Assembly: GCA_045837725.1 (NCBI GenBank)
Contig: JBEWZL010000102.1
Location: 62,001 to 126,000 of the forward strand
DNA from: Vermamoeba vermiformis
Lineage: Eukaryota
Reading direction: 5' to 3'
Length of the DNA: 64,000 nt
The notes below the pieces were generated by a model. The model ran no database searches. It was not told the DNA's origin and was given only the letters and a program-made list of their open reading frames with translations. A program made the translations under genes and the position numbers. Below, piece by piece: positions 5,327-59,129 of the stretch (position 1 is the first letter of the stretch; every line of letters begins with the position of its first letter).

Positions 5327-7188
5327 GAAAATTTCATAAGTAGGCTCGTAGAATAATATATTTAAATCCGTACCAGTAAAACTGCGACACTGTCACAGTT
5401 GACAAGGCGTGGCCTAAGTGACATCTTTTGGCACAAACTACGCACACCGTTGAGTGACCGCACGTGTGGCATTCAAAGCTATAGAAATGATGCATTAGCG
5501 TACAGTCATTGGAGGGAATATATTAAATTAATTAATATATATATTAAAAGATAGCACCTCTCTTGTTGTGCTGGGTTGAGTTGAGTGGCTGCAAAAGTGC
5601 ACATGTAACGCGACACAGCCACCGCACAATTTTTGATAATGACTTCTGTTGTATCACCTGGCTGATATAATATCTCGTAATTTTGTCTTTTCGGATAAAG
5701 CACAATATCAATTTTGTTCTCGGAAATTGAATTGCTGCGGGATAGTTCTTCGACGGTAAATTGCGTGTTTGAGCATTGACTTGGCATTGATAAACCTAAT
5801 AAGACCAATATGAATATGGACCCTTTCGCCTAATTGATTAATACTTTATCTGTCGTACCAGTTACTCCGTTTTTCTTAATCTGGTTATCAGTAATAAAGT
5901 CGATGTTAACGTCGTATCTCATCACAACTCCATGGCGCTTATTGTTCAAAATGATGTTTTTTGAGAGCCTTACTGTCGAATTCTCGAAGACCGCCAATCC
6001 GACAGCATTGTTCGTTAATTGATTTTCGAAGAATAAACATTCGCTATTTGGCTTCATAGTGATACCTCGTTCTTCATTTCCAGCGAAACGACATTTTTTT
6101 ATGATCGAAGTTGCGCTCGATTTGGTCAGGATAACTCCGCTCTTGTTTTTCATGAACGAACAACCTTCCAAAATCATCGACCTTTTGCATCCTGTTGCGC
6201 GAATTCCAGTGGCATTTTTCGCAAACACTAGTAATATACTATTAGTCGTAAGATAGATATTAATACCGAGTTTATGATACATACCACATCCGGAGGCATG
6301 AATTTCGCTATCTTTCGCGCTAAAAATTCCGACGTGCGAGTCGCGAAAACGACAATTCTTAATTGTTACTGTAGCCTCCCTAATTTTAATATTAATTTTT
6401 TATGTTCAACTTTGATTGATTGCTTCTGCTTACACTATAAACAAGGCCGAAGCAAACCTTGATTGAAATTCGCAATTCTCGATAGCGAAATTGAATTTTT
6501 GCAAAGAACAGGCTACACGACCTTCTTTTCCCTTCTTGCATGTCTCTATGGTTAAATTCTATTTATAAAAAGTTAGCTATCACTTCGTTCGTGAATTAAA
6601 GTATAATACTTTTATCGAAACAGTTCTTCCAGGGGCTTCTCCTTGAGGATCGAAGCGAAATATACTTTTAGAACTACTAATGAGTTTCGTTTGTTGGCTT
6701 TCTGGTTTTTGAGACCAAGGAGTGTCCCATAGCCCGCAGATGTCAACGTTAGGCAAAAGAATTATCGTCTCGCTTAATGAATACACCCCTGGGGCAAATA
6801 TCAGGTTCCACCTCATCACTTTTGATAGCTTCCATTTGTCTTTTATGTAGTTCATCGCTTGTTGAAGCGTCAGAAATTGGATCGACTTGAAAAAAATTCT
6901 CTTCCAATCTATAATTGCAATTATTAGCTCAAAAAATACTGCATTATCATGTAGTATTTTATAATAATTTATACCTGTTTCATCTGCGGATATACAAATT
7001 ATTTTTTGTTTTTCTTTGTGAATTCTGTTTCTCCAGAACCCAGGCGAATTGGACATCTCTTTTAATAAGTGGGATGTTCTATATAAGCGTACGAGACATG
7101 ACGAATGTGCATGGCTGATAACGCGCTCAATCAATTCCAACGGTAGATCGAGAAGCGAAAACACTGCGGCTTGCTTCGTATGATCCAT
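5264..7188 (-). CDS. FBXO11-like protein: F-box, CASH/PbH1 repeats and C-terminal UBR-type zinc finger (paralog B)
   Basis: F-box LLDLPLELIERVI; beta-helix repeats (GNEERGI..NNAVGLAV..NNKRHGV). Spliced C-terminus CTFAATQ..FECHTCGHSTVCVVCAKRCHLGH..FYCDCGAEPQCQAL; stop at 5264-5266. Confidence 0.8.
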
Positions 7189-7495
7189 ATAGCTATATAA
7201 CTATGACCTTTATGTTATGATGACTTGGTTAATTGTTGTATTCGGTTAAATGTAAGCTCGCGAATCGTTACAATTTGAGGAGTTTTTTCGATCGAAAACG
7301 CAAAAATGGCGCAAAAATCTCAAAACAATTGTATGGACTCAGTTGAAAGGTAGGTGGATTTATTAATTATCACTCGCTCCTATCAACCAACGAGCAATAA
7401 AAGTCGGTGCAACAACACGCTGGGATAATTTGTTTCTTTATTTACAAAAAATCACTAGTTGTGACCAAAAAATAACGCTATTAATACGACCGTTC

Positions 7496-11835: not shown

Positions 11836-13198
11836 TCATTCGACTTCAGAGCCCTGATGATGCACTTCCTCTTCGTGTTCATATTCAATTTCCTCTTCTT
11901 CATCGTCATCATCGTCCTCGTCCTCGTCTTCCTCTTCTTCTTCCTCTTCGAACATCAGTTGTTCCTCTTCGTCCGTCAGCAGCTCGAGCATATCCGCGCT
12001 CTGAAGCAATTGCAGATCTTTGAAGACTTTGACCTTAATAACAATCGTGTCATTATAGCACGGCAGATTGGCCGCGTCTGCACCGAATATTGTCCAAGTG
12101 AAGCCAGTGCCGTCAAGCTCGAGTGTTTTGACGAGGAAAATGCCTGGTGGTCCTGAATAGAACGAGCGGATCTCGCGCATTGAAACTTTTTCGGAGTGTT
12201 TGTTGAAATGGAAATATATTGGCTGCTCATCACCTTCGACTAACAACTCTACTGTAGTATACACTTGATGCTTTCGCTTAATTTGTACTTGGATCTCGTC
12301 ACCGATGCTTGGCAGCGTTGAATTATTATCAATAATAACTGCCCAGATCTGCCCTTGTTGTTCTGCAAATGATAAAGACTAACGATTAATCGTAGTATTT
12401 ACATATAATAAGCTAATGCAAATCATTCTAATGGATAGGCAAAGATGGTGCAAATGAATGAAGGTCGATGTTCGAGGACTTACCCCAGCCTTTGAATAAA
12501 TATGCGCCATCTATAGTACCCGGATAATAGTTCTTAATGTCGGGCAGTGTCACGTGACTGCTTGGTTTGGGAATTATTTGTCGAATAGGCTCGTCACGAC
12601 CTTCAACAAAGTACGTGACACGCGTTTGTTCTAAAACACAAAAATTTAAATATAATTGCTCTTATAAGTTATAATATATGGTTTTAATATATACTTACGT
12701 CTTTCTATTATTTTTACTTTAATTAATAAGCTAGGGTCGTCGTAGGAAAGTACGGGTGAGTTATCGTCCGTCAACAAATTCCACGCGTAGTTCAAATTCT
12801 CGCCAAATTCATTTGTTTGAGATGGATTGTCCAAATCTAATAAATATTACGTTAAAATAAAGCAAAAATAGCAGATCTGAACGTAAACGTACGTGTCTTT
12901 CTAAGCCAATTTTCTCGTTACGAATTAAACATGACTTCAATCAAAATATTTTAAAATGACAGAACATAATGTAAGAGTATTATATCATTGTTAAACGGAA
13001 TTTTAGAATTAAATAAAAATTACTGCAGTATTTTTCGAAGATCATACCGATAGTTTTAACAAAGAACATGCACTGTGGTCCTTGGTAATATTTTTTAATA
13101 TCTCCTAGCGTAATTTGTGATGAAGGCTTTGCGAAACCGATTGGTGACGCATCTGTGTCCAAACCGTACCAGATTAGCGTAGTTTGAATAGCCGTCAT
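11836..13198 (-). CDS. Protein with three tandem DIX-like domains and an acidic C-terminal tail
   Basis: Four GT-AG-joined exons give three repeats: TLIWYGLDTDASP..ITLGDIKKYY..FFVKT..TDDNSPVLSY; TRVTYFVEGRDEP..VTLPDIKNYY..YLFKG..IDNNSTLPSIG; TTVELLVEGDEQP..VSMREIRSFY..FLVKT..DAANLPCYND. These resemble the Dishevelled/Axin DIX pattern. Confidence 0.7.
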
Positions 13199-33243: not shown

Positions 33244-35135
33244 TTAGTGGTTCAATAACGCCTCAAATACGGCTTGCAACGATCCATTATGAGAGTTCAA
33301 TAATTGAACGTTGACGGCTACATCCGTGAATCCAGCATCCAGAAGTTCGACCAATTGCGTCGAATAAGCAAAGTCAGCAGGCACCATATACTCCTCTTTA
33401 GAGACTTCTTGTTGGTGGTGCTCTTCAATCACAGGCGCAGAGGGCTCGCAGTGTACGGAGACTTGCATGCTGTGCTGTTCGTTGGTGCTCGAGACCACTA
33501 CAGTAGTGTTGTTATTAACAGCGTCGACATCAATAGTCACAGGCTGAGAGGCTGCGTATTGATCGACGTTGACGGAGTATTCTGATTGGTGCAATCGGTT
33601 CCACAAGTGTGGGAAGTACTCCTTGTACACGGGTGGCAATTCTGGCTTGCCTGCAGCTTGATTCTTATCTTCAGCGCTCATGAGTCTTCGTTCTTCTTGT
33701 TGGTCAATGATATTGCGCATTAAAGATGATTGCCAGCTGTTCGTCTCTTCAACTTGTCGATCTTGATCCACCGAGGAGTTGTTCATGTTGACATTGTTGT
33801 TGCTCTCGGCCATAGCCTCGTGCTCAGATTCATCTCCCAACAAGTGAGCACTCTCCTCTTCACGGTCTGAAGAGCTATCCAAGACCTCGTAGTCCACAGA
33901 GCCCTTCAACATGGTGAATTCATTGATCAACTGGTTGTCGGACGCAGACAAGTGCTCGAGTCCGTCGTTCGAAATCTCGATTTGAATAGCGTTGTTATTG
34001 TCTCGAGGACTATTCTTTGAGCTTCTTAAGTGCTTTCCAAGCTTGCTAATTTTGCTGAAATATTTCTCGATCGCCTTTTTGGATTTGCTGTGGTGCTTGA
34101 GGACTTTCTTCTCCCACTTCTGGAAATACTTCTTATTCGGAGCTTGTCCGATCTTTTTGAAGTATTTCTTCGAAGGCAGCAAGCCATATTTTTCAGGGAC
34201 TTTAACTTTCAGCAACATGTGGCTAGCTGGATGCACATCCGGAATTTGTTCGCACTTCTCGCACAAATCCTAAGTAACGAATCATTAGTAAACGATTATA
34301 TATCTCGTTATAAGGCTATACTTACATAGTCAACGCATTCAAAGCATTTGTAACGGATACCAAGGATTACATTATCGCACACGTGGCAGACGGCTTCATG
34401 ATGCGGCATTAAAGCATTGTTATTGTTAGGCGCTATAATGGCATCAATATTATTATCGGCCCTATTTTCAGGAATATTAGCGGGTTCTATCTTCATCTGT
34501 TGCTCGCGAAGCACGACATCCTCAATCTGGGCCATTGAACGAGGGCTGTGAGGGGCAGTAGCGGGTCCATCAACAATAGTAATCACTGTATATGTTGGTG
34601 GATCAACGACCATCCTATTTAAAATCATAAGAATACAAGAATAACGGATGAACTTCACTTGCGTCAGCAGAAACTATTCCATCCGGACGAAATTTGAAAT
34701 AATTAAGTGTAATATAAATAATATATGACATAATAATACGTAATTTACATACTCTTCGACGGCTACTGGCTTTTCTTCCGGATTTGCTTGGTGAAGACCA
34801 GTTCCGGTGAAATTTACATTATTGTTATTCGATTGGACTGGGCTTGCGCGAGTTACTTGTGGTGACCCAGAGGCATTAACAGATATACGTAATATTGGTG
34901 GAATTTTGGCCAATGAAAGCGTAATAGCGACTTTTAATTCTTCGTCAGAGTTGATGCTGAGCAATCTGCCGTCTTCGTGTTGATATTGAACCTCACAATT
35001 ATCACACTTTAATATTCTAGCCATATTCTCTTTCAAGTCCGCAAGGGTCACGTTCTTGTTAATGCTGATGCGACGCACATCTTCGCTACCAGCCAATCTG
35101 AACTTGACCGTGATCTGACCAGCCTCGTATTGCAT
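33244..35135 (-). CDS. p62/NBR1-like autophagy receptor (PB1, ZZ, LIR-like, UBA)
   Basis: PB1 VKFRL..DVRR..YQHEDG..INSDEEL; ZZ CHVCD..RYKCFECVDY|DLCEKCE..H..H; DYEVL; UBA QLVELLDAGFTDVAVNVQLL. Confidence 0.88.
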
Positions 35136-35517
35136 TCTATTGATATGATCGCAGAAATAATATGAGGTCTTGTGGTGCAGCTGTTTAAAAGAAAGGTTGA
35201 AACAAAGAAAACTCGCACAAAAGCAAAAATTCACGAAAAGAGGGAGGCAATTTCAGGCCCAATTCAGTACACGATCAAATTAACTGCTTTTGTTTACTCT
35301 GGGACCACTCTGATAATAACGATAGGACCCTGAGCTCAGTCGGTCTATCGTAACAATCGGTTTTGTTGCACCGTGCCCATCCGTAAACATTTTGCCGTAG
35401 TAACGCTTAGGATTGGCATTAAACCATCCTATTTCGCTTTGTGTGTTTCGTCTTGTGGAGTCGGGTGATGTAAATTGTAATCTTGGCTTTGACGTTTCAA
35501 ATTTACAAGCGCCAGAA

Positions 35518-45286: not shown

Positions 45287-46441
45287 CTACATGACTTCAA
45301 CCAAATGATGGTCAAACTTGATGTGGTGCAAGTTAAATACGGTGCCCCATGCAATCAACATCTGTATAATTATATGCGTTAATATAATTACATTGCAGAA
45401 GCGCGTGCCGAACATTAAAGAGGAAAAATTTTCCGATCGGAAAAACAAGCTTACCTGAGCGAGGTAGTACGTCGTTAAAATCATGCCGGAAGCATAAGGA
45501 ATCTCCTTAAAGAACATATCCCAAGCTAGGATGGAGTCTGCAAATAATTTGACGGTTAGAAAGTCGTTCTACCACATCCGACAGATCCGCGACCTCGTGC
45601 TTACCTGAAATTGCAAATAAGAACGCTCCAACAGCTACATAAGGATATTCCCGTCCAGCAGCAAGGTCAAAATTAATTGCCGTGACAAGCATGCCTATAG
45701 AGTTGAGTTAGTTAAGCTCGATCACGACGCTTCAGAGAAAAGGATCAGAACTTACAAGCAAGAATAATGCTGTAGATTAGGATTGGCACGAGGAACTTGC
45801 GACCTTTAGGCTTGCTTCTGAACGAATGAGTCAACACAGCAACATACGCGAGCAACACAGTCATAATTCCTCCGAGCAGGTATGGATGCATGACCCACGG
45901 AACCATCAACGTGAATCCAACGAAATATAAGACATGTCCAATTAAGAACGCGATCAAGCCCTAAATAAAAAATCAGAGGTTAATATTCTGAAAGTCTAAA
46001 CATTTTCGATCGCAAGGCTCATAATATTAGCCTTATACATGATAATTTGTAGTAAAACTGGCAATAATATGACCAAATGGAAACAATGGAAATCAATTTA
46101 ACGGGTAGACGTGAGGGTTCACTGAGTTTTCGGGGATTCGTCTCCAAGTTTAAAAAATAAATTCAGGGCTTTACCTGCAAGAAAAGCGTCGGGAATAATA
46201 GCAAAATATCTCCAATAAGTCCAAATATCAGGCCCGATACAATGAAAGTGTAGAGGAAAGTGTGGAAATTAACATTGCTGAAGAGGCGCATGATCAGCTC
46301 TATATTGAAGAGAGGCGAGAGCAAGATCATGATAGGGAGTGGCTTCGTATAGTAGTATGCCTTGGGGTAATAGACCTTTGAGAAGATCGACAGTGCGCCA
46401 GTGGGAATGATCAGAGCCAACAGATTAGTCCACTCAAACAT
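45287..46441 (-). CDS. YhhN/TMEM86 lysoplasmalogenase-like membrane protein
   Basis: TKPLP, GLIFGLIGDILL, GLIAFLIGHVLY, GAFLFAISD and TYYLAQMLIA motifs. Confidence 0.88.
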
Positions 46442-46911
46442 GGTGTAAGATCGTTATTTCTCCAGGGCAATTCTTCGTTTTGATCTTTTGTGGTCGCAAT
46501 ACTTTGAGGCGTAGTATAAATGATCACATTGCCCGCCTGTCTTTTTTTTTGCATGTCGTTCAAATTTTTTTTGCGCATTGTAAGCGTGAACGCGCAGTTG
46601 CTTTGCACACCATAGAACTTGTATAAATTTCGGCTGCAATTACTCGTGTATACACTGTTCTGCCATGTCTTATCGAGGCTTGCTATGTTATTTGTTGCTC
46701 CACGAATCTGTTGGTCTGATTGAGGATTGACTCGATTTATTTAATAATCGTGGTAGGTGTACGTGACTCGTAGAATTTTTATAAATATCAATCGCTAGAG
46801 CTCGTCGTAATAACTGTTCCTTACATCCCTCAAAAATATTTTGGATTAAAAATTGCTTTCTCACTTACAGCAATTTATACCGTTTTGTAAACAAATTACG
46901 TAAATTCCTAG

Positions 46912-49900
46912 GAGGACAGCAGGAAATTCTGCACGACGAATTGTCTCGTCAGGCGACAGAGCCGCTTTTAGAAGGACGTTAACCTTTTCTGGTCCGGGTA
47001 TTCGGGCCCACATTAATTTTTATCTACCGTCCGAGGAGAGAAGTCCAGAATTTCGTAATCCTTTTGCTTCGTACTCCGTTACACTAATTAAAAGGTGAAA
47101 GAAGCACCGCAGAGCGCTGGGCTAGTACGTCATTGTCCATCCGCGCCTGGTCAACGCAATGAAAGTACGCGATGCTCGTCAACTTTGGTCTTTGTATAGT
47201 TACTAACATCCCCTTCACTTAGGTTGGATCCAGCAATAAGCAAAGAGAATTAAACCGCTGTTTAATATGGTTATAATTGCAAATCTCCCGTAATCTCCAA
47301 AACAATCTTTGCCAAGATTTCAACGCTCCACGTGGCAGTTCGGAGGTTTGTATTAATCTATATATTGCGGTTACTTAACGGAGTATTAATTTTAAATAAT
47401 TTTGTAACAGATCAACACACGACAAGAGTTGGTACAATTATTTTAGTATTATTCAATTACTCAAACGGTTGGTGATGGAGCTTCATCAATATATTGAAAC
47501 GGTAAGCCATGAAAAACCAATCTTGTATCTATATTGTGTCACGTATTAATATTTTCTGATGAATATAGAAGCTACTATCGTCATTCGACTACGTGCACGA
47601 AATATTGCGGATCAACCTCAGCTCGGTCGAGACGGAAAATAAACTTCTCGTGCAATTGACGCAGTTTTACGAGAAGCATGATCGCTTGAATGATTTCATG
47701 CGGTGGTCAGTCATACAAGAAGTAGAGAATACTGGTAAGAACAACGACAAAAGATCACACTTTTGAATTGTCAAACCCCGATCTAACGAGCTTCGGATAG
47801 AAATCCCCGATGATTTGTTTCGCAAGGGCAGCATCGCCACGGGAGTGATGTTTCACTTCCTCTTTAGTGACTTGGGCAAGATCTACTTGAAGAATACAAT
47901 CTTGCCGACGATTCGACAAGTCGAAGAACTGACTGAAGATATGGTATGTATGCAGCATTGACACGATCTAAGAGATGCATGACATTTCAAAACCAATCTC
48001 GGAGTCTAGGGGAGGATTTGCCTCAATCATTGCCGACAATTCCATTCTGTTTCTAAATTTGGAAACATCTTAATTCTACCTCGACTCTCAGTCGAGAGTA
48101 TTTGAAGAGCGATACTAACGTAGCGATATATGATAGGAAGAAGACGATGATTTCAGTCCAAGTGTGATGCGCGACATTCTTAACGTGGCAGCGGAGTTTT
48201 TAACCACGTTGAACGATGAGTTGGCATCGTTCCCTCTGTAAGTTGCCAATAACTGCTTGGATATAATCCTTGGGGATACTATTTTAAGAATATTTATTGC
48301 CATTGCTCTTGGATTATTTAAACCTTTCCTAATGTGGATTCACTCCAGGCACATGCGAGAAGGTTTCTTAATTCTCGAGAAAGAGGTGGCACGCAAGTTT
48401 CCTTCGTTTGACAACGTCGTTGGCTCGGTGTTGTTTCTTCGTTTCATCTCGCCAACCATCCTTCAACCGCAAATCTACGAAATTTCGGACGAGCCATCCA
48501 ACCCGGCTTCTCTTCGTGCCCTGATCCTAATATGCAAAATAATGCAAGCCATCGTCAACAAGAGCCAAGTGGTATTGCCAGATGCTTCGGATGGTATCAA
48601 CGAGCAAATCCATCGCTTCATGGTTGCGCATGCAAAGCCGATGAGTTCCTTTTGCAGGAGATTAACGGTAAGATATTTTTCGAGATATACTATTGCGCCG
48701 CTATGGCTTAAAACAATTATCGAAGCTATTCCTGGTCCCTAAATTGCTTTTTCCTAATTTGGAAAGTAGGATTCCCAAGAAATCAACTTTTGTAAGAAAG
48801 TTATCGCAGCATCCGTGCGAGCTCAAGTTTTTTCCGATGAAGAGAAACGAGCAGCTATCAATAGCTTGATGGAGTTCCTTGACGAGAATGAAATGGAAGT
48901 CCCTACCACAGCGAGGCGGCCGAGATCGTCGTCGTTCCGGATAAGTTCTAGCGACCTGCTTACTTCGAAGTCGCTGCCAGTCAAACCTCTGTCCGCATCA
49001 GCCAGCTTCATTAGCGACACAGACGACACCGATACCGAAGATTCTTTCGAAAGTACTTCTTCGCGAAGTCGCAGTAACAGCATAGCGGACAAAAAGAAGC
49101 TCCGGAGATTTAGTGTGGGCTCAGAAGGGTCCAGTAGATCTGAGCCTGGTGCTCCCCGCGTCGTTGGAAGAATGCCCAAGTTCGTCCGAGAACGCGAAGT
49201 AGTTTCCTTAGATGGCGAAAAAGTCAAGCTTGAAACAATCTTTAAAGACAAGACTGTAGTATTAGTTTTGCTAAGACACTTCGGGTGGTAAGTACAATAA
49301 GTTGCCTATTCTTAAAAAGTACTAACGAGAACGTGTTGTAGATTGTTGTGTCGCAGATCGGCTTCCGAATTGACTCAGATCGAGCCGGTCTTGAATTCAT
49401 TAGGGGTAGAGTTAGTGGCTATTGGTTCAGGCACTGCTGCCATGGCTGCAGATTTCAAACAGGATTTCAACTTCACTGGTCAGATCTACGTGGATGAAGA
49501 ACGTTTAGTCTACGAAGATCTGCGGTGCAAGCGAGGCTGGAAGAATGCCTTGTTCAACTCAAACACATTAAAGTCTATCGTGTCGGCTTGGGAGAAAGGC
49601 TATCGACAAGGAAAGAAACAAGGAGACATGCTGTAAGTACTACTTAGAATCGCCAGATCTGCGTCGTGCCATAACTAACCTCGTTCTCGATTAGTCAATT
49701 AGGTGGTTGCTTCGTGATTAAGTACGACAAGGTCTACATGGAGCACTTGGATCGGTACGCAGGAGATTTTCCGAAAGTTTCAAAAATTCTGAAGGCCTGC
49801 GGTGCTGACGATGAGATGATACAAAAAGTCAGAATTAAAACACGAAAAGAGATGAAAAAAGAAGAAAAAGAAGAACGTAAAGCCAAGAAATTAGAATACA

Positions 49901-49947
49901 AACGAGCAAAAGAAGCGTTGAAGGCCGAACTCGCGGCAAAGAAGTAG
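46912..49947 (+). CDS. RasGAP fused to a PRXL2/SelU(AhpC-TSA)-like domain with an in-frame TGA (UxxC); probable selenoprotein. Exons upstream of 47569 are uncertain
   Basis: RasGAP arginine finger DLFRKGSIAT and FLRFISP. Intron 48668-48769 joins in frame to an S-rich linker and VLVLLRHFG-TG|A-LLCR (intron 49288-49341), then IYVDEER..Y and GDML|QLGG. Stop at 49945-49947. Confidence 0.88.
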
Positions 49948-50100
49948 ACCTTCAATCGCACTCATTGACATCGCTGTAACGGCACATGACATGACACAAC
50001 AAGTATGGTTCATCACTCTCCCGTTGTGGTTTGTAACGACTACCCCTGTTGCAAAATCGCTTCGTGGATGCAGCGGTGGATCGGGATTCAGAACAGAGAG

Positions 50101-50154
50101 ATGAAGACTACCAAACTAACTCCTACAACCTAACGGAGCTTTGTGTAGTCTGAA
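50101..50154 (+). promoter_or_regulatory. SECIS element, type II, in the 3' UTR
   Basis: ATGAA-GACTACCAAA-CTAA-CTCC-(11 nt)-GGAG-C-TTTGTGTAGTC-TGAA: tandem GA core, ~10-bp helix II, unpaired AA and an apical mini-stem. Confidence 0.88.
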
Positions 50155-50575
50155 CGACAAAGCGTGCACAATACAATATTTGTGCCGCTTGGTGCTGTCC
50201 TGTGTCTTGATCTATGGACCAGTGAAGTTGTGCACGTCGTGTGAGTCTGTGAATGCGATGCCGATGAACTTCATTGTAATATAATGTATATAAATATGTT
50301 GTATTTTTAATGCCACAAACATTTAGCCAGATGCGGAAAGTAAGGCTGTTAAGAGATCGAACAGCTTTGCAAAAATTTTATTGACAGCCATCAAATGACT
50401 ACGTTAATAAAGGTGTATAACCTAGTATAGTATACTGTCCAAAGAAGATTTTGGTGCCCGAGAAGGATTTTGGAATCGGAATATCAGTTGTTTTGAATGT
50501 CGAGAAGAGATGCACAACAACGCACAAATTAGTATTCAATAGCATATACTCGGTTCCCTGTCAATAGTTGAAAAT

Positions 50576-53500
50576 ATGAATAATTTCGACGAAACTGACC
50601 CTATAACAAACGAGGAGTAAGGAAGAGTTAATCCAACATCTATTATTATTGCAATTATTCAAACCTCAAAATTACCAATACCAACGTATTTAATCCATTA
50701 GGCCTAAACCGCGTAGGGGCAGTACAGCTAGTTTCCATAGAACGAAATCGGAAGGAAAAGCAGAGGAAACACACGTAAAAAGCGACAAAAGGTAAAGTTA
50801 CAAAGTGGATTTTGCAGCTAAAAATTTTACGCTTTGTATTATCGACCGCACGCGTATAACAAATTTAAAAACGAATGGATAACACTCGTAAAAGCCCAAA
50901 TGGCTTGCCCGGTCCAGCGAGAAGACAAAAATCCACTAATGTCCGTGGAGCTGGAGGAGATTTCTGCAAAGTTTCAGCAATCTGGAAAATTATTATTTAG
51001 TTCACAATCTGGAAATAGAAAACACAAAGCGACTTTTCTATTGGATCCACACAAATTTCCAGCTTATGAGATTCCGAAATTTTACTCGTTGCTCTGGGCC
51101 GGTTTCGGACTTAGCGATTCTTTTGCCCCATCCGTTCCTTAATTAATCTGACTTTATGGAATCCAGCACTTTCCCGAATGTCAACAAAACTTCGTTCTTA
51201 CTCTCTTATTACAAACGTAGGGACTCAGATCCAACACCTATGGATGAAGTCGACTTTTGGAAAAAGCAAGCATCACATTATCGAACAGAAGCAGAGAATT
51301 GGGAACGCATAGCATGTAGTTTAAAGGCTCGGTTAATAAGATTGGGCGAAATGTAAGTGATTTTAGAAAAATAATTGAGCGCGATCGCGAGTTTCGTTTT
51401 CTTTTCTACATTTTTATCGAAATATATGCCGGCTTGATCTCGACTCTATTAGAAATTTAATCGATCGGCGCATATATTTCGTAATTATTCGAAATGAATT
51501 CATTTTACTCGATCCAATCAAAAAATTTTGATTTTAAACGAAATCTTATTGGTATCATATTATTTTTGTAGTGATCGCACATGAAAGCTTCTGGGAATTA
51601 TATATTAACCATTATTATATAGCTGCAAATCTTTTTCTACTTCGTGGGAGAGGCTTCTTCACGGCGAGGAGACAGAATCGCTTGATTCGCCACGAGATTT
51701 AGATCTGATCAATTATCGAGCTGAATCCTTCGACGAGACATCAGTATTAGCTAAGAGGAGAATGTCAAAGCCTGAACCTTTACTAAAAGCGGTCAATTCA
51801 ACATCTGGATCGAGCAACGGAAACGCGACACGAACGATCTCTACTGACGCGATTCCGCCGTTTAGTAAGCGCATAGTGTTTATTTAGCTACTTTAAGTCT
51901 TATTTTTCAAAAATAACGTAACGCTGTGACACATCTAGTGCAGTAGTGTACGGGAATTAACGATGTGCATTAACATCAAAAATTCATCGATCTATATGTA
52001 TAACTCGCTAAAAATCGATGTGTCGGAAACAGTATTTGTGCGATATTTCCTAAATGGCACCTTTAAATTGCAAAAATTCTTGTTTTTTCATTTTAAATTT
52101 TATTTCGACATGTTGACAACAATATTCAGACAAAAAAAGAAGCCTACGACTGGTACTGAACGTTATCTTGAAGCAGGTTTTAGGCACTCCACTTCGGTGG
52201 GGGCCCTTGTCATGAGCAAGAGAACAAGCTATGACGATCTCGACACAATTATGCAATCTGGATCCCCTCGAGCTCTTACTCCAAATCATCACAACAGAAA
52301 CAAATCTGATCCCAAATCAACTACCAACGTTCAGCCAGCAACACAACCACTCGCGTTTTCGGATCCGCGGCCAGGCACTTTTCATCTTGACGAATCTAGT
52401 TCTACGTCAGATTCGGATGTTACAAACAACGCAGTGCACATCCAAATCGATCCGAAAGAAATGAAGATTATAGAGCAACCACATAAGAAGAAAAAGAAAG
52501 GGTTGTTCCATAGACGACACGGCAGCGCAAATTCAGACGAGCCAGAGTCAAATCCGGAGACCTCAATGGCAGAACAACGTCCTGAAGCTTCGCATAAAAA
52601 GAAAAATAGCACTACTGGTATAGTGAAGTCACTAGGAACGAGCAATTTATATCAGTGTAAGTCTCTAATAGCGCCGCTAATAACTTGGCCGATCTCAAAT
52701 TATCATCTTTGTCTTAAAATCGTTCACTCGCATGCCGTTTGATCTAATATATCACGAAATTTACGAATATTATTATACCGTTTCGTGCTGCCGGCAAGCT
52801 TGCACCATTTTCTTTGGATCTCACTCCTAAAAAGTATTTTATCAATTTTCTTTGGAATTTCTTCAACCGTAGACAAAAAAACTTACTTTATTTGTCGAGC
52901 ACGGTTCAGAGGAATCTTTTCGCGTGCTTCAAAAGTGCGGCAATAGAGTTCAGCCAATAATTAAATTTGGATGCGCTAGGAACTTTTAAGAGCTTTTGCT
53001 AATGTATATGTTATCAGCAGTGACTCAAGTGACTAAAGATAAGCAAGCAGTAGTCGCCCAGAAGAAAAAGCAGCCGCCTCAGATCTCGTTAGTGAGCGCG
53101 TACCGACAAGTCTCGGAGCTTAATGGATTTTTGGACGCAAAAGGCACCATTACAACATTATTATCAGATATTCCTAATCTCAAAGTCTCGGTAGGTTAAT
53201 TTCGGATTTCAAACTTAACCAAACTGCAATTTATTTTTCAACGGATGCAGCTCGTCAAATTATTCTATTTTACATCAATAATATCGACAATATACTATGA
53301 TTTCACGCCTTGCTATGAAACGAACAGAGCAAGGTCGATCAACCTCAAATTCTCGTGCAAAAGTTTGAAATTTCCGAACGCAAAAGCGATCGTTTGTGTA
53401 TTTTGCAATTGATCCGCTTACAAGATACGTACTAACGCTCTAAATATTACAATAGGACAAGTTTGGACAAGAGATTGGTACACTAAGGTCCGGCAAATCA

Positions 53501-55109
53501 AGCGAGAAAGCATTCGTGATCCCGAAAAAAGCTTGCGGCGTGACCACATCCACGTACCCTATGATCACAACAGGTGCGTATATGTTTGTATATGATTATG
53601 TTTCATAAGGGAGTGTGATTTACACAATTTAGATTCGCTACAGTATACTTTTTCTCCCTTACGGAGATTGCATTGGATCGCACAATTAAATAACTTTAAT
53701 ATTTTAGGCAAAGACCAGAAAAGCCTTCCAGTACGCTATGGCGATCCTAATTGCGATAGATTCGGTATTAAAGTCTACAAACACCGCATACTCGTTTGCG
53801 TAACAGACGGATGTGGCTGGGGCGAGAGATCATGTCGCGCCTCTGAAGTCGCAAACCACGCGTTCATGAACTACATCGAGAACCAACACGTTGCCGTAGA
53901 AGATACGCATTCGGCAGCGTTATTGATGCTAAAGTAAGTTTCGCAATGCGATCCGTATCTTAACACAGAAATTTGGTTCATGAAATCGTTGCTACGTCAT
54001 CGACCATTTATAGTAATAAATACCTTTCCGTTCACTGAACCGACGAACATCGATTTAATGGTCGGAATTCTTTGCAACAAATTAATTTTCTTCCAATTTC
54101 ATGAACAGTACTTGACCAACAAAATCTTTGTTACTAAAAATATTCTAGTGGCTAATAATAAACGCATTTAATAGGGGCCTGCAAGAAGCGCACGAAGCGA
54201 TCATTCAAAACGTGCAGAATCATTGGGAGGCCGGTACCACGACCCTGTGTGGTGGCATGTTGCTGCGTCTTGAAGACGACGATGAAGACGGACCGCGCTT
54301 TGGATTCTTGTGCGCGAACATTGGTGACTGCAAGGCCTATCTGTACAACACTGACGGACCCACGCAACGATCATCCGTGACCATTGTTAGTCCCAAAGAA
54401 CGCGAGATCTTGTCGGCCGGACCTAGCTCCGATTTTATTCCCTCTGCCATGAGCTCATCGAGCAACAATAATAATACCAATGTGAGCAAGGACACGAATG
54501 GCAGTGCGAACAAGAGCACGGCGAAAGTGATTGACATGACTCGTGGCAACCGAGGCATTGACGCACGACACACTGGAGGCTGTTTGGGACCAAAATTGGA
54601 AAAACTGAAGCCTCGTCTTGATAACTTGAAGATCACTTGGACTATCTGCAGACCTAGTAAGTAGATCCGCTACGTTAAATTTTACGTGTCAAAAGTGTCA
54701 AAAATGTCACACAAGTTCTTTACACAATTCAATTACTGATCGCTGATTTTAATCAATAGAGGACTTAATAGTGCTAGTCTCGGATGGTGTTCATGACAAT
54801 TTTGATCCTGAAGCCTTGGGCGAGCAGCCTGGCAGCCTTGGCTTGAGCCAGCCCACGTGGCTGAACGTGCCGCAAAAAGAATCGGTCGAGGCACGTGACA
54901 AGTACCGCGCGAACAGACTCTACGAGCAGATTGAAGGCATTAAAGACCCGAAGAAAGTGACGGACACGATCATTCGCTACGTCGTCAAAACTACGCACAA
55001 TCAACGCGAGTACTTGGAGAAGAACAAAGGCGGTCAAGTGCCCGATGACTTTGTCAATTACCCTGGCAAGATGGACCACTGCACTTGCGTCAGCTTCGTC
55101 GTCGGATAA
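50576..55109 (+). CDS. PPM/PP2C-like domain protein with a long low-complexity N-terminus
   Basis: STYP, GDPNCD, VTDGCGWG, AGTTTLCGG, ANIGDCKAY, GGCLGP, SDGVHDNFDPE and PGKMDHCT motifs. Confidence 0.8.
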
Positions 55110-55340: not shown

Positions 55341-56574
55341 TTATTCATATTTGGAATTAGTAACTCTTACAATAAAACCTGATCGAATTCTATTAATCAA
55401 TTTGATGCTATTTACAACTGGATCTAAGCCTGGGTAACGGATCCTAGAGAAGATCTCGAGCCACAATTCTTTAGGCAGACCCATTGGCGGCTCATTACTC
55501 CAAGCGATATTATGTACTAACATGGCTATCTTATATAACATATCTGCCTGCAAATCTCGATTTCTTTTCAACTGTTTCAAGATCTGAATCGTTATTTTTG
55601 TACTGCTGAATATCTCTAAGTGCATAATTAACTTCTAATACGTTCTCTATAGCACTACAAAACTTAATATACGTATATATGTCATCAGGAATGTCAGCTG
55701 AGTATAGATCTACGAATGTCAATGAACTGTTGAGTCTTAATCCGGTGCAGATCAGATCCACTTCATTTTCTTCGCGCGGATTATAACAATTTGATAGCCA
55801 TAGTTTCCTTAATGTATTATTTACAGCCAACATGTCTTTCAGCGCTGTCAAACCATTGACACCGAGATCTGAATTATCGCTGAGGACTAGTGTTCTGAGA
55901 CTAGTGTTTGTTTTCAGTGAATTGCAAAGTGCAATTATTCCGCTCGATTGAATCTGATTTTGATCGAGATCGAGCTGCGTCAAGGTCTGATTATGTTTCA
56001 ATCCTTCAGCGAGGTACTTGCAGATCTGATGGTCAATATTGCAGTTGATTAAATTAAGCGTTGTTATATTCTTCTTAGTCTCTAATATTTCTTGTAAAAT
56101 TTTTGCGCCTTTTGCGTCGATCTGAACCACGCCTGATAAAATAAAACTTTCAAGCGAATTATTCTCTTTCACGGAACTAAATAGCACGTGAATCTCGTCT
56201 ATATTTAAAGGAGTGCTCCTTATTAATAGTGTGCGTATTGTTGTGTTTGATTTTAAGGCTTGAAAAATTTTCTTGTGCAGATCCGTTCCGTCTGGATCAT
56301 TTGAATCCAGTGTGAGATTAGGGACTCGCATAGTACTAATCATATACGCAAATAGATCTGCCTCTTTGATCGGTACTATATTTTTGACTAGTGCCAGCTC
56401 TTGCAGTGCATTGGTGTTTCTGAATCCGTTGGTGAGGGATCTGATGATTTCCGGTGTGAATGTGCTTTGGTTGATTTCAAGTGCTCTAATAAAATCTCCT
56501 TTTAGAGATATACAGAGTGATGCGGCGACATCTGCTGTAATTTTGTGGTGATAGGCTGATCGGCCGAGATCCAT
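55341..56574 (-). CDS. RNI-like leucine-rich-repeat protein with a C-terminal LPxELW (F-box/BC-box-like) motif; apparent +1 frameshift at about 55597
   Basis: Repeats of the type LKxNxTLxxLxLxxN; shifted tail LKRNRD..GLPKELWLEIFSRI; no introns seen. Confidence 0.7.
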
Positions 56575-56977
56575 GAAGATATTTTTCGTGTTAATTCTAA
56601 AATTCAAATCAATTCGAGAATAATATGACAAAATCATATAGCAATGCAGATGTCATATTAATAGTGTTAATAATTAGTAAGAAATGTCAAACAGAAATTG
56701 ATCCATATCCTTTAGGACGTCTAAATGGAATTTACCTGATTATAAGCCCTCACGTTCAATTTTGATTATAGATCAATGATTCTCCGTAAATTAATAATAC
56801 TAAAATTAGTTTTGTGGTTGTTAGAAGACGAAAGAACAACGAGGAAAATTTATCTGTCACCAGCACAACAGAAGTCTTTCAGCGATTGCAACCATGTGCC
56901 AACAATAATCACATTTTGCGACATTATATTATAACTTATAACTCTCTTCAAGTTGCGGAGTTTATTAAGGTTTCAGT

Positions 56978-59129
56978 TCAAGTTTTTTGCACCTTTTTTT
57001 GAAGGAATGCGTAACACTCCTTTTTGTGCATCATAGTGTACGTACGAACGTCTTGAGGGCATCCATTGTCATATAAATATTCTAAACATTTAACCGAATC
57101 TCTTTGGACAGCTGCGTACCAAGTCTCTTTGCTCCATCCGCTGCCATTTTCGTGCGCGTACTTCAAAATTTTTAGATTACCATTGCTTGCTGCTGCAGTG
57201 CACTCGTGATGGCTCCAAGGACACCCATTTTCACGCAAATATTTCAAGCACTTCAAATGAGAGGCACCCCGGCCATTAGCCGCTGACCGGCAGGCATTTG
57301 AGGTCCATGGCACGCCGTACTTGTGCGCTATTTTCATGCACATGAGGTGTCCATGGGAAGCAGCCACCGAGTGCACGAGAGAGCTGTATCCACAGCCGTT
57401 CTTGAGCGCGTACTCGAGGATATCTGCTCGGTCAAATTCGGCTGCTAACATCGTCACGCTATCATCCCACTCGAAGCCCATTTCGTGAAGATATTTTAAC
57501 GCGTCTAATGCACCTGTTCTAGCCGCTGCACTCAGAATCGCTGGCTCGCACTCGCCTAGTCCCACAGCATTAATAAGGCCCCTTAAAATTATCGTGGTCG
57601 TGTTGTACTTACATCCGAGATCAAGGAGGTACTTCAACATTTCAACGTCGTTGTTCGACACAGCCACATTGCACAGTGAGACGTCGCTAGTGTCAAGCTC
57701 GTAGCCGCATTCGAGAATGTATTTCAAGCACTGCAAGTTCTGGTATTGTACTGCTTTGAATGCCATCGTTTGCGATGGTAAAGACGACGTCGTCATCGAA
57801 ATTGTTGTCGTAAACATCATCGTAATCGTCAATCTTTCCGTCCCATCGAAAGCCATTCTCGTGCAAGTACTTCAATATCTCTAAGTTGCCAGCAGCGTTT
57901 AAGCACGCGATGTTTGTGCTGGGCTTGGGACACCCAGCTTCGAGCAAATATTTTATCATTTGCACATCGCCGAGTTGAGCTGCATTGTCGTATTCTTTGC
58001 CACACCATTTAGCCCCGTGTTCTCGCAAGAGCCTATTAGATTTGTTAACATAGGTGCGGACAGAGGGTCGCTCCAAGTGTGACACTTACTTGACACATCC
58101 GATGTCGCCGGAGCTCACTGCATCCTCTATTGGTGACATTGAGCCATCTGTGTCTATATGCGCGGTATTGCCGTTCAGCAGCGCGTATTTGACGCACTCC
58201 AAGCTGCCACTCCGAGCGGCATTGTTCATCGTTTCACCCCACTCACAGCCGTTCTCGTGGGCAAATTTCAAACAGTCCAAGTGCCCTCCAAGCGCTGCCA
58301 TTTCACAGCTGACATTCAAGACGTATTTTGCTTCGTAAAGATATTTCAAGCACTCCAAATTACCGCCTGCAGCAGCTGCGTTGCAAAGACGAGCTGTCCA
58401 TGTAATTTATCGGGCAGCCATTGGCCAACGCGTACTTCAAACAGTCAAGACTCCATGCTGCTGCCTCTCTTAATAGTAGTGAGTTCCATGGGCAGCCATT
58501 CTCGTGCAAATACTTCAAGATCTCGAGGTGGTTGTGACGAGCCGCAGCTTCCGTAGCGAGTTCGTCCCAAGGAAATTCGTTCTCGTGCAAATATTTTAGG
58601 CACTCAAGGTGACCGTTGGCAGCTGCATTTGAGCATGCGAGACTGTCAAAGTCGCAGTCGTTGTCGTCTAGAAACTTGATCGCTTCGATCTGACCCTTGC
58701 GAGCAGCAGCAGCGATAGTTGTAGCGTCCCATTCCATTCCAAGAGCACGGCAATATTGTAAGCACGATATTGCGCCCATTTCTGCGAAATACTGCATTAT
58801 ACGGCCAATTGGCTTTTTTGAAGTTGATAGTTTTGGATTGCAGATCTTAAAAATGTGCTTGTTTGCTGTTCGTAGCAACAGTACGTCATATACAACAAGA
58901 TCGTCTAATATATGTGTCCATACGTCGGTTGGTAAATCTAGCAATGTTAAATCCTACAACGAAACGTCAGTTCCATCCAGAAAAAATAAAGAAAATTACA
59001 AATTAATGTGGATCATCACAGTGGAAGTGATTTTAATGGTAGGTATATTACATTAATATTCTTATTTTTATGCAAGAATGGATATTAAATTACTGGCCAG
59101 TAAATTGCGACAGAACTTACTCCTTCCAT
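56978..59129 (-). CDS. F-box plus ankyrin-like repeats of the AAxxGHLECLKYLHENGCPW type; two apparent +1 frameshifts
   Basis: MEG|DLTLLDLPTDVWTHIL followed by many repeats. Real GT-AG intron at 58014-58089; frame breaks near 58405 and 57780. Confidence 0.75.

What the first reader, a model, noticed from the sequence alone, without database searches (positions are those of the whole stretch)
50101..50154. Canonical type II SECIS hairpin 154 nt after the stop codon
The A-UGAA/UGAA non-Watson-Crick core, a ten-pair helix (GACTAC-CAAA with TTTG-t-GTAGTC), unpaired AA about 13 nt from the core, and a CTCC/GGAG apical stem are all visible. It lies on the sense strand, in a 3' region that is GC-richer than most intergenic DNA here. 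It independently supports reading the TGA as Sec. I could not identify helix I with confidence.
Basis: partly seen in the sequence, partly recalled or inferred. Interest (0 to 1): 0.8.

Follow-up and report, generated by a model that had tools for sequence, protein, structure and literature searches.

The report
Branched SECIS of RasGAP-fused selenoprotein
This hairpin is very probably a real selenocysteine-insertion signal in a protist mRNA, with a predicted extra side branch at its base, and it serves an unusual gene that joins a Ras-regulating domain to a selenium-bearing redox domain.

Summary
The hairpin at 50101-50154 is there as described and is very probably a real type II SECIS (about 0.92). 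It follows a spliced gene encoding RasGAP + AhpC-TSA_2, whose UxxC UGA is split by an intron. Relatives carry Cys at that site. The genome encodes tRNA-Sec, SepSecS, SPS and eEFSec. All 5 UGA-bearing AhpC-like paralogues have such a hairpin; none of 7 Cys loci has a convincing one. A covariance model trained without this element ranks it first in the window (19 bits, E 0.047).

It is not fully canonical. [quoted passage not shown] This three-way junction was seen in 0 of 12 other SECIS candidates of this genome. It is a folding prediction (about 0.7) without covariation proof.

The Sec domain also sits behind a second RasGAP and a RasGEF. Verdict: new variant of a known kind.

The parts
47475..49947 (+). 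Host gene model, 8 exons (47475-47501, 47569-47734, 47801-47943, 48137-48237, 48349-48667, 48770-49287, 49342-49632, 49695-49947): 605 aa, RasGAP - Ser-rich linker - AhpC-TSA_2 (UxxC) - Lys/Glu-rich tail. The start codon is tentative.
   Evidence: One open frame with a single internal UGA at codon 425. Introns 47502-47568 and 48668-48769 are seen as joints in contigs of runs X2 and X1, and 47944-48136 as a loose end. The other four introns are inferred from donor, branch and acceptor consensus.
48349..48667 (+). RasGAP C-terminal exon with the FLR motif
   Evidence: PF00616 E 8e-10; aligns to p120GAP and neurofibromin, E 8e-7 to 7e-5
49286..49342 (+). Sec codon split by a phase-2 intron: TG at 49286-49287, intron 49288-49341, A at 49342; motif RHFG-U-xx-C
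   Evidence: All 5 in-frame AG acceptors within 400 nt give UGA. NF040769 positions 4-36 and 39-135 match the two flanking exons. No read joint was seen for this intron.
49342..49632 (+). AhpC-TSA_2 / peroxiredoxin-like 2 exon behind the UGA
   Evidence: PF13911 E 3.5e-11; nearest solved structure is prostamide/prostaglandin F synthase, E 2.7e-20 with profile A1
49945..49947 (+). TAG stop codon
50077..50096 (+). Predicted helix I, 5' arm (18 pairs with probability >=0.58, two single mismatches, several G-U)
50101..50105 (+). [quoted passage not shown]
50106..50150 (+). Helix II (50106-50115 / 50140-50150, bulged U50144), unpaired AA 50118-50119, apical stem 50120-50123 / 50135-50138, 11-nt loop
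50151..50154 (+). 3' half of the core (UGAA)
50161..50189 (+). [quoted passage not shown]
   Evidence: -14.9 kcal/mol, 3 of 1000 dinucleotide shuffles as good; pair probabilities 0.95-1.0
50195..50214 (+). Predicted helix I, 3' arm
50265..50315 (+). AT-rich stretch, likely 3' end region of the mRNA (inferred; the next transcript is covered from 50501)
   Evidence: sequence; X1 record 6; no poly(A) site was observed

Best explanation
The element is a functional eukaryotic type II SECIS of about 140 nt (50077-50214), not 54 nt. After splicing, TG|A forms an in-frame UGA in the RHFG-U-xx-C redox motif. The tandem G.A/A.G core kinks and binds an SBP2-type protein, and eEFSec delivers Sec-tRNA, giving a 605-aa RasGAP-AhpC-like selenoprotein; termination at the UGA would give a 424-aa RasGAP without the redox domain. 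Helix I closes the internal loop with a normal 4-nt 5' strand, but its 3' arm lies 40 nt downstream because a stable hairpin is inserted in the 3' strand. The result is a three-way junction, with the extra arm on the side that SBP2 footprints least. Shown: sequence, frame, machinery genes, paralogue correlation, transcription through the 5' arm. Inferred: the UGA intron, Sec insertion (about 0.92), the branched fold (about 0.7), and any redox control of the GAP domain (speculative, about 0.3).
For: Machinery: tRNA-Sec with UCA anticodon, SepSecS, SPS with its own UGA and a SECIS candidate, eEFSec domain III. Cys homology: 50 of the 57 representatives (of 150) that span the motif have CxxC at the UGA column; a metagenome relative has an unsplit UGA there, as does paralogue L015, whose close relative L016 has Cys (102). 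Correlation: 5 of 5 UGA loci have the hairpin, 0 of 7 Cys loci a convincing one (Fisher p 0.0013, or 0.0022 counting the duplicate L012/L013 once). Eight hairpins of the same build lie behind Rdx, Sep15, GPx and deiodinase genes, and the Cys GPx has none. Hold-out model R1 (5 other elements) puts this element first in the window, 19 bits, E 0.047, next 12.4. Contig X1 record 4 runs from 49714 through the stop into the 5' arm, to 50123. Branch: 149-nt fold z -5.55, MFE equals centroid; same fold at 20-45 C, and 0 of 600 flank controls in each of two sets reach its energy; the one listed X1 difference in the arm (50088) turns a mismatch into a G-U pair. [quoted passage not shown]
Against: No Rfam SECIS hit. 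No read joint across the UGA intron, and no transcript evidence 3' of 50123. SBP2 was not recognised among the 5 of 9 L7Ae matches that I read. R1 missed 4 descriptor-found candidates (L038, L041, L042, L051) at E<=1, so its silence on Cys loci is of limited power; weak descriptor hits do occur in Cys loci L008, L011 and (antisense) L017. The helix I duplex alone is only moderately better than shuffles (34 of 1000). A long enclosing helix by pair count arises in 104 of 600 and 214 of 600 controls. The folding bounds were chosen after seeing the fold. No orthologous 3' arm was obtained, so there is no two-sided covariation.
Confidence: 0.68

Rival explanations
1. A real, functional SECIS, but the distant helix I and side hairpin are incidental folding of a GC-richer UTR; the element works with a weak or transient local helix I.
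For: Helix I duplex alone p about 0.03; enclosing helices of similar pair count are common in controls; the GPx candidate L042 also showed no enclosing helix in the same test; helix 1 is described as variable and a minor determinant of efficiency (PMC2761289, passages).
Against: Local alternatives are very weak (-2.3 kcal/mol); 11 of the 12 other elements have a clear helix I starting 0-5 nt before the core, as the predicted one does here (4 nt); pair probabilities near 1 in four contexts up to 621 nt (59).
Confidence: 0.24
2. A decaying relic: the gene descends from a selenoprotein, but the insertion has disabled the SECIS, so the UGA now acts as a stop and the product is a RasGAP alone.
For: The internal loop is a known determinant of SECIS strength (PMC2761289), and this one is far outside the 3-10 nt of all four SECISearch patterns.
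Against: The 180 codons behind the UGA are intact; related strains keep the post-UGA exon at 93-95% identity; core, AA and helix II are perfect; in X1 the stretch 50025-50113 shows 1 listed difference against 9 in 49948-50024 (p 0.006, but 0.16 if the 4 unlisted differences all fall there).
Confidence: 0.05
3. A chance hairpin; the UGA is an artefact of my splice model and the real mRNA encodes another residue, or the AhpC exons are a separate gene.
For: SECIS-like patterns occur 10-22 times in this window; the UGA intron is not seen in reads; no contig bridges 49034-49714.
Against: Every in-frame acceptor gives UGA; the same intron position gives Cys or Sec in the paralogues, matching absence or presence of the hairpin; exon 48770-49287 is one open frame from the RasGAP side to RHFG, and paralogue L006 repeats the RasGAP-AhpC order.
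Confidence: 0.03

Closest known systems
Eukaryotic type II SECIS (SECISearch3 definition, PMC3753652; human set, PMC2761289)
   Same: AUGA/GA core fitting UGAN/KGAW, ten-pair helix II, bulged AA 12 nt from the core, apical mini-stem, 3' UTR position.
   Different: [quoted passage not shown]
Dictyostelium and Ostreococcus SECIS elements (PMC2375036, passages)
   Same: Type II with lineage-specific traits; long apical parts are on record there.
   Different: No UGUA before the core and no U-U mismatch; the passages read mention no branch at the base.
AhpC-like / SELENOU (PRXL2) selenoproteins (PMC3753652 Fig. 4 and S6; PMC13134290; NCBIfam NF040769 SelL-related redox protein; Pfam PF13911)
   Same: Thioredoxin-fold domain with RH(F/L)G-U-xx-C and Cys homologues.
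   Different: Here fused behind a RasGAP domain. The AhpC survey's list of Sec carriers names no amoebozoan. The subfamily (PRXL2A, B or C) was not resolved; no tree was built.
Amoebozoan PH-AhpC-RapGAP proteins (database entries P0013, P0018 and others)
   Same: The same redox module joined to a regulator of a Ras-family GTPase.
   Different: They carry Cys, and the partner is RapGAP; 0 of 164 retrieved proteins had a stretch like this RasGAP, though a UGA would cut such proteins in databases.
Fusion selenoproteins of algae: SELENOM-pVHL, SELENOM-ShKT, GST-MSRA (PMC7539508, passages)
   Same: Selenoprotein domain fused to an unrelated domain.
   Different: No GTPase-regulator fusion is named; 'GAP' has 0 occurrences in its main text.

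Membership tests
Eukaryotic SECIS, type II | Core UGAN/KGAW with tandem GA, preceded by a purine | tested here: met
   A-UGAA / UGAA (definition)
Eukaryotic SECIS, type II | Helix II 7-15 pairs, bending <=2, apical region 8-30 nt, energy below -4 (SECISearch3 structural filter) | tested here: met
   10 pairs, one bulge, 24 nt, -14.4 kcal/mol, counted by hand
Eukaryotic SECIS, type II | Unpaired AA 10-13 nt from the core, followed by an apical mini-stem | tested here: met
   AA at 12 nt, 4-bp stem
Eukaryotic SECIS, type II | Helix I closing the internal loop | tested here: inconclusive
Eukaryotic SECIS, type II | Match to a curated covariance model | tested here: inconclusive
   Rfam: no SECIS family at E<=10 on 48000-52000. 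Genome-specific hold-out model: top hit, E 0.047. The SECISearch3 Infernal and Covels models were not available.
Eukaryotic SECIS, type II | Lies in the 3' UTR of an mRNA with an in-frame UGA | tested here: inconclusive
   In-frame UGA upstream; one spliced-run contig joins the coding end to 50123 (13); the 3' arm is not covered
Eukaryotic SECIS, type II | Host encodes the Sec machinery | tested here: met
   tRNA-Sec, SepSecS, SPS, eEFSec; SBP2 not recognised; PSTK not searched
Eukaryotic SECIS, type II | Binds SBP2 and directs Sec insertion | not testable with these tools
   needs binding and reporter assays
AhpC-like / SELENOU (PRXL2) selenoprotein domain | PF13911 domain with UxxC aligned to CxxC of homologues | tested here: met
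AhpC-like / SELENOU (PRXL2) selenoprotein domain | NF040769 curated cut-off (120 bits) and subfamily placement | tested here: inconclusive
   Single exons score 33 and 20 bits; the joined domain was not scored and no tree was built
RasGAP (active) | FLR motif and downstream Lys | tested here: met
   aligned with p120GAP
RasGAP (active) | Arginine finger | tested here: inconclusive
   An LFR motif lies at model residues 70-72 (71), like the finger loop as I recall it; the exon alone did not hit any GAP structure; paralogue L006 has Lys there

The most novel reading that the evidence does not exclude
[quoted passage not shown] This one controls a selenium-dependent redox module that this lineage has attached to both sides of the Ras switch (two RasGAPs and a RasGEF with Sec, RapGAPs with Cys), so that selenium supply or oxidant level tunes Ras signalling directly, and UGA termination versus read-through yields a GAP with or without its redox sensor.
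Probability: 0.25. Interest if true: 0.78.

Novelty: new variant of a known kind. Interest (0 to 1): 0.55.

Why it matters
SECIS elements and AhpC-like selenoproteins are known, so the hairpin alone is ordinary. Two things go beyond that. First, if the branched base is real, the internal loop of a SECIS tolerates a 30-nt hairpin on its 3' strand. That defines which face the recoding machinery reads and suggests that pattern searches limited to a 3-10 nt loop lose or mis-draw real elements; this genome supplies a dozen unbranched controls. Second, a Sec-bearing thioredoxin-fold domain fused to RasGAP and RasGEF domains would link selenium redox chemistry to small-GTPase signalling within one polypeptide, and the Sec and Cys paralogues make the question directly testable. 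Neither point turned up in ten full-text searches, which cover open-licence papers only.

Tried and rejected
Rfam scan: three chance hits, no SECIS. Raw-read runs X9 and X11 do not hold this gene: their matches are mostly A-rich stretches under 90% identity, so they give no 3' end; 4 of 11 listed runs were laid. Word-index protein searches with the AhpC exon and the RasGAP exon found nothing. A plain MAFFT alignment of 12 hairpins was unusable. Pair counts on A7 show strong covariation (score 0.80, 0 of 500 shuffles), but the rows are different genes aligned to the model's own structure, so I do not use them as proof for this element. A ciliate-type code was rejected: no in-frame TAA or TAG in 605 codons. 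PPR hits for the 47770-47958 exon are spurious. The TIGR00475 candidate on C179 is eIF2-gamma-like by my reading, not eEFSec. No SECIS candidate was found by the descriptor for Rdx locus L040 and deiodinase locus L046, whose Sec or Cys state I did not determine. A genome-wide search for all SECIS elements with the model was not done, so other branched elements may exist. Earlier findings of this scan: none returned.

Full report
Observation. It begins 154 nt after the TAG at 49945-49947. It folds at -14.4 kcal/mol (z -3.85, 0 of 200 shuffles). The pattern alone is not rare: my implementation of the SECISearch loose pattern finds 22 sites on both strands of the window and my folding descriptor finds 10. 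Rfam reports no SECIS family here.

The gene. The element follows an eight-exon gene on the + strand. The model from the tentative ATG at 47475 gives 605 codons with one internal stop, a UGA at codon 425. The N-terminal half is a RasGAP domain (PF00616; FLR motif aligned with p120GAP) and the C-terminal part an AhpC-TSA_2 domain (PF13911), nearest to prostamide/prostaglandin F synthase among solved structures. The UGA is split by the intron 49288-49341, and all 5 in-frame AG acceptors within 400 nt give UGA. It stands at the first position of an RHFG-x-xx-C motif: 50 of the 57 representatives (of 150) that span this motif read CxxC. Two introns were seen as joints in contigs of runs X1 and X2 and a third as a loose end; the UGA intron itself was not seen. 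The named eukaryotic relatives are amoebozoan, so the host is probably an amoebozoan; this is an inference.

Is the UGA selenocysteine? The genome (43 Mb) has tRNA-Sec, SepSecS, SPS with its own UGA and eEFSec domain III. SBP2 was not recognised in the 5 of 9 L7Ae matches that I read. Twelve AhpC-TSA_2 loci exist: five have UGA at the motif (this gene, L006, L007, L014, L015) and seven have Cys, two of these being near-identical copies. All five UGA loci have a hairpin with an RUGA core, 9-10 pairs and AA at 12 nt. The Cys loci gave only three weak descriptor hits (UUGA or antisense, 8 pairs, AA at 11) and no model hit at E<=1; on 55.5 kb of longer Cys loci the best score was 12.7 bits, E 2.2. 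Fisher p is 0.0013, or 0.0022 without the duplicate. Eight further hairpins of the same build follow Rdx (2 of 3 loci), Sep15 (1 of 1), GPx (1 of 2; the other has Cys) and deiodinase genes (4 of 5), and a candidate follows SPS. A model built from five other elements ranks this one first in the window (19 bits, E 0.047, next 12.4). That model is not very sensitive: it missed 4 descriptor-found candidates and gave one probable false hit. A contig of run X1, about 96% identical, runs from the last coding exon to 50123, so at least the 5' arm is in the transcript.

Helix I. No helix closes the loop at the usual distance: the best duplex of the 22-nt flanks is -2.3 kcal/mol, the weakest of 13 elements. 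With longer flanks one fold dominates. Bases 50077-50096 pair with 50195-50214, leaving 4 nt before the core on the 5' side, while the 3' strand (50155-50194) holds a hairpin at 50161-50189. Most pairs have probabilities of 0.85-1.0 in four contexts up to 621 nt, the fold is the same at 20-45 C, and the 149-mer has z -5.55. Of the 12 other elements, 11 have helix I with a 3' strand of 2-11 nt and no branch, and one gave no enclosing helix. The single X1 difference listed in the arm, at 50088, falls on a mismatch and makes it a G-U pair, if the partner base is unchanged.

Limits of the branch. Its energy exceeds 600 of 600 controls in two sets, but part of that comes from the side hairpin. The helix I duplex alone is matched by 34 of 1000 shuffles, and a long enclosing helix by pair count appears in 104 and 214 of 600 controls. 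The folding bounds were chosen after seeing the fold. X1 is one contig at depth 6 with 4 of its 16 differences unlisted, and it ends before the 3' arms. No orthologous 3' arm could be fetched. I put the branch at about 0.7.

Mechanism. After splicing, the core forms a kink-turn-like motif that recruits SBP2 and eEFSec with Sec-tRNA, and the UGA is read as Sec (established knowledge; definitions in PMC3753652 and PMC2761289). [quoted passage not shown] The internal loop also sets SECIS strength (PMC2761289), so the arm may tune read-through. Termination at the UGA would leave a 424-aa RasGAP without the redox domain. That the UxxC domain regulates the GAP is speculation from the architecture: exons for a second RasGAP (L006) and a RasGEF (L007) lie directly upstream of Sec paralogues, PH and RapGAP exons flank Cys paralogues, and Cys PH-AhpC-RapGAP proteins occur in other amoebozoans. 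The paralogue fusions are inferred from exon order, not from transcripts.

Comparison with what is known. It works like, and on the features testable here belongs to, the eukaryotic type II SECIS class: it passes the SECISearch3 structural filter by hand count but not the default pattern. Long apical parts are on record for Dictyostelium and Ostreococcus (PMC2375036). AhpC-like selenoproteins are known (PMC3753652), as are other fusion selenoproteins (PMC7539508) and a single Acanthamoeba SECIS (PMC8038987). Ten searches listed no paper on a branched eukaryotic SECIS or on a Ras-regulator selenoprotein. They cover open-licence text only, and I judged most listings by title and abstract start. 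One low-ranked Seblastian candidate shown is drawn with a 3-bp hairpin in the same strand, so small inserts have been drawn before.

What I saw of each paper. PMC3753652: passages, plus supplement 2 parts 1, 4 and 72 and term searches (file 1 not searchable, parts 5-71 seen only as hits; these could hold further amoebozoan or branched candidates). PMC2761289, PMC1874613, PMC2375036, PMC7539508, PMC8038987 and PMC13134290: passages only. The RasGAP arginine-finger motif and the labels of the L7Ae and eIF2-gamma-like matches are recalled, not tool results.

Verdict. A real SECIS (about 0.92), canonical above the core and probably branched below it (about 0.7), serving a RasGAP-AhpC-like selenoprotein from a small expanded family. 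New variant of a known kind; interest 0.55.

Noticed in passing
L006/L021, L007/L022, L014/L023, L015/L024: Four more UGA-bearing AhpC-like paralogues with SECIS hairpins. L006 lies behind RasGAP exons and L007 behind RasGEF exons; L014 and L015 showed no fused domain in the ORFs scanned.
   Followed up: partly
L011/L027, L017/L030, L012-L013/L028: Cys paralogues with PH and RapGAP exons (PH only for L012/L013); similar PH-AhpC-RapGAP, DEP-RGS-AhpC-RapGAP and AhpC-RapGAP-kinase proteins occur in databases.
   Followed up: partly
L045, L047, L048, L051, L038, L039, L041, L042, L036: A sizeable selenoproteome: four deiodinase-like, two Rdx, Sep15, GPx and SPS genes with SECIS candidates, many with 7-11 nt apical loops.
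   Followed up: partly
L006:2714-2745: The SECIS of the other RasGAP paralogue has an 8-nt bulge in the 3' arm of helix I, a possible small side hairpin.
   Followed up: no
P0003, P0137 and 41 of 150 representatives: Gene callers mis-read this family: two entries show Trp at the Sec column (one matches read-through into the intron of L006), and 41 begin just behind that column, as expected for unrecognised UGA codons or introns.
   Followed up: no
window 50025-50065: A second predicted hairpin in the same 3' UTR, upstream of helix I, in the stretch with few listed X1 differences.
   Followed up: no
window 50501-51350 and 46400-46506: Neighbouring transcripts: a spliced gene covered from 50501 (intron 50617-50701) and a more deeply covered transcript ending near 46506.
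   Followed up: no
window 5833-7200 (-), 11839-12378 (-), 34677-35252 (-), 53596-53934 (+), 55534-58953 (-): F-box next to a beta-helix domain, a weak DIX match, a PB1 domain, a PP2C-like piece, and ankyrin/LRR genes.
   Followed up: no
L012 and L013; L047 and L048: Near-identical copies on two contigs (L012/L013) and a tandem deiodinase pair (L047/L048): possible haplotype duplication or recent gene duplication.
   Followed up: no
L060-L068: No clear SBP2 among the 5 of 9 L7Ae matches read, although the other Sec machinery genes are present.
   Followed up: partly
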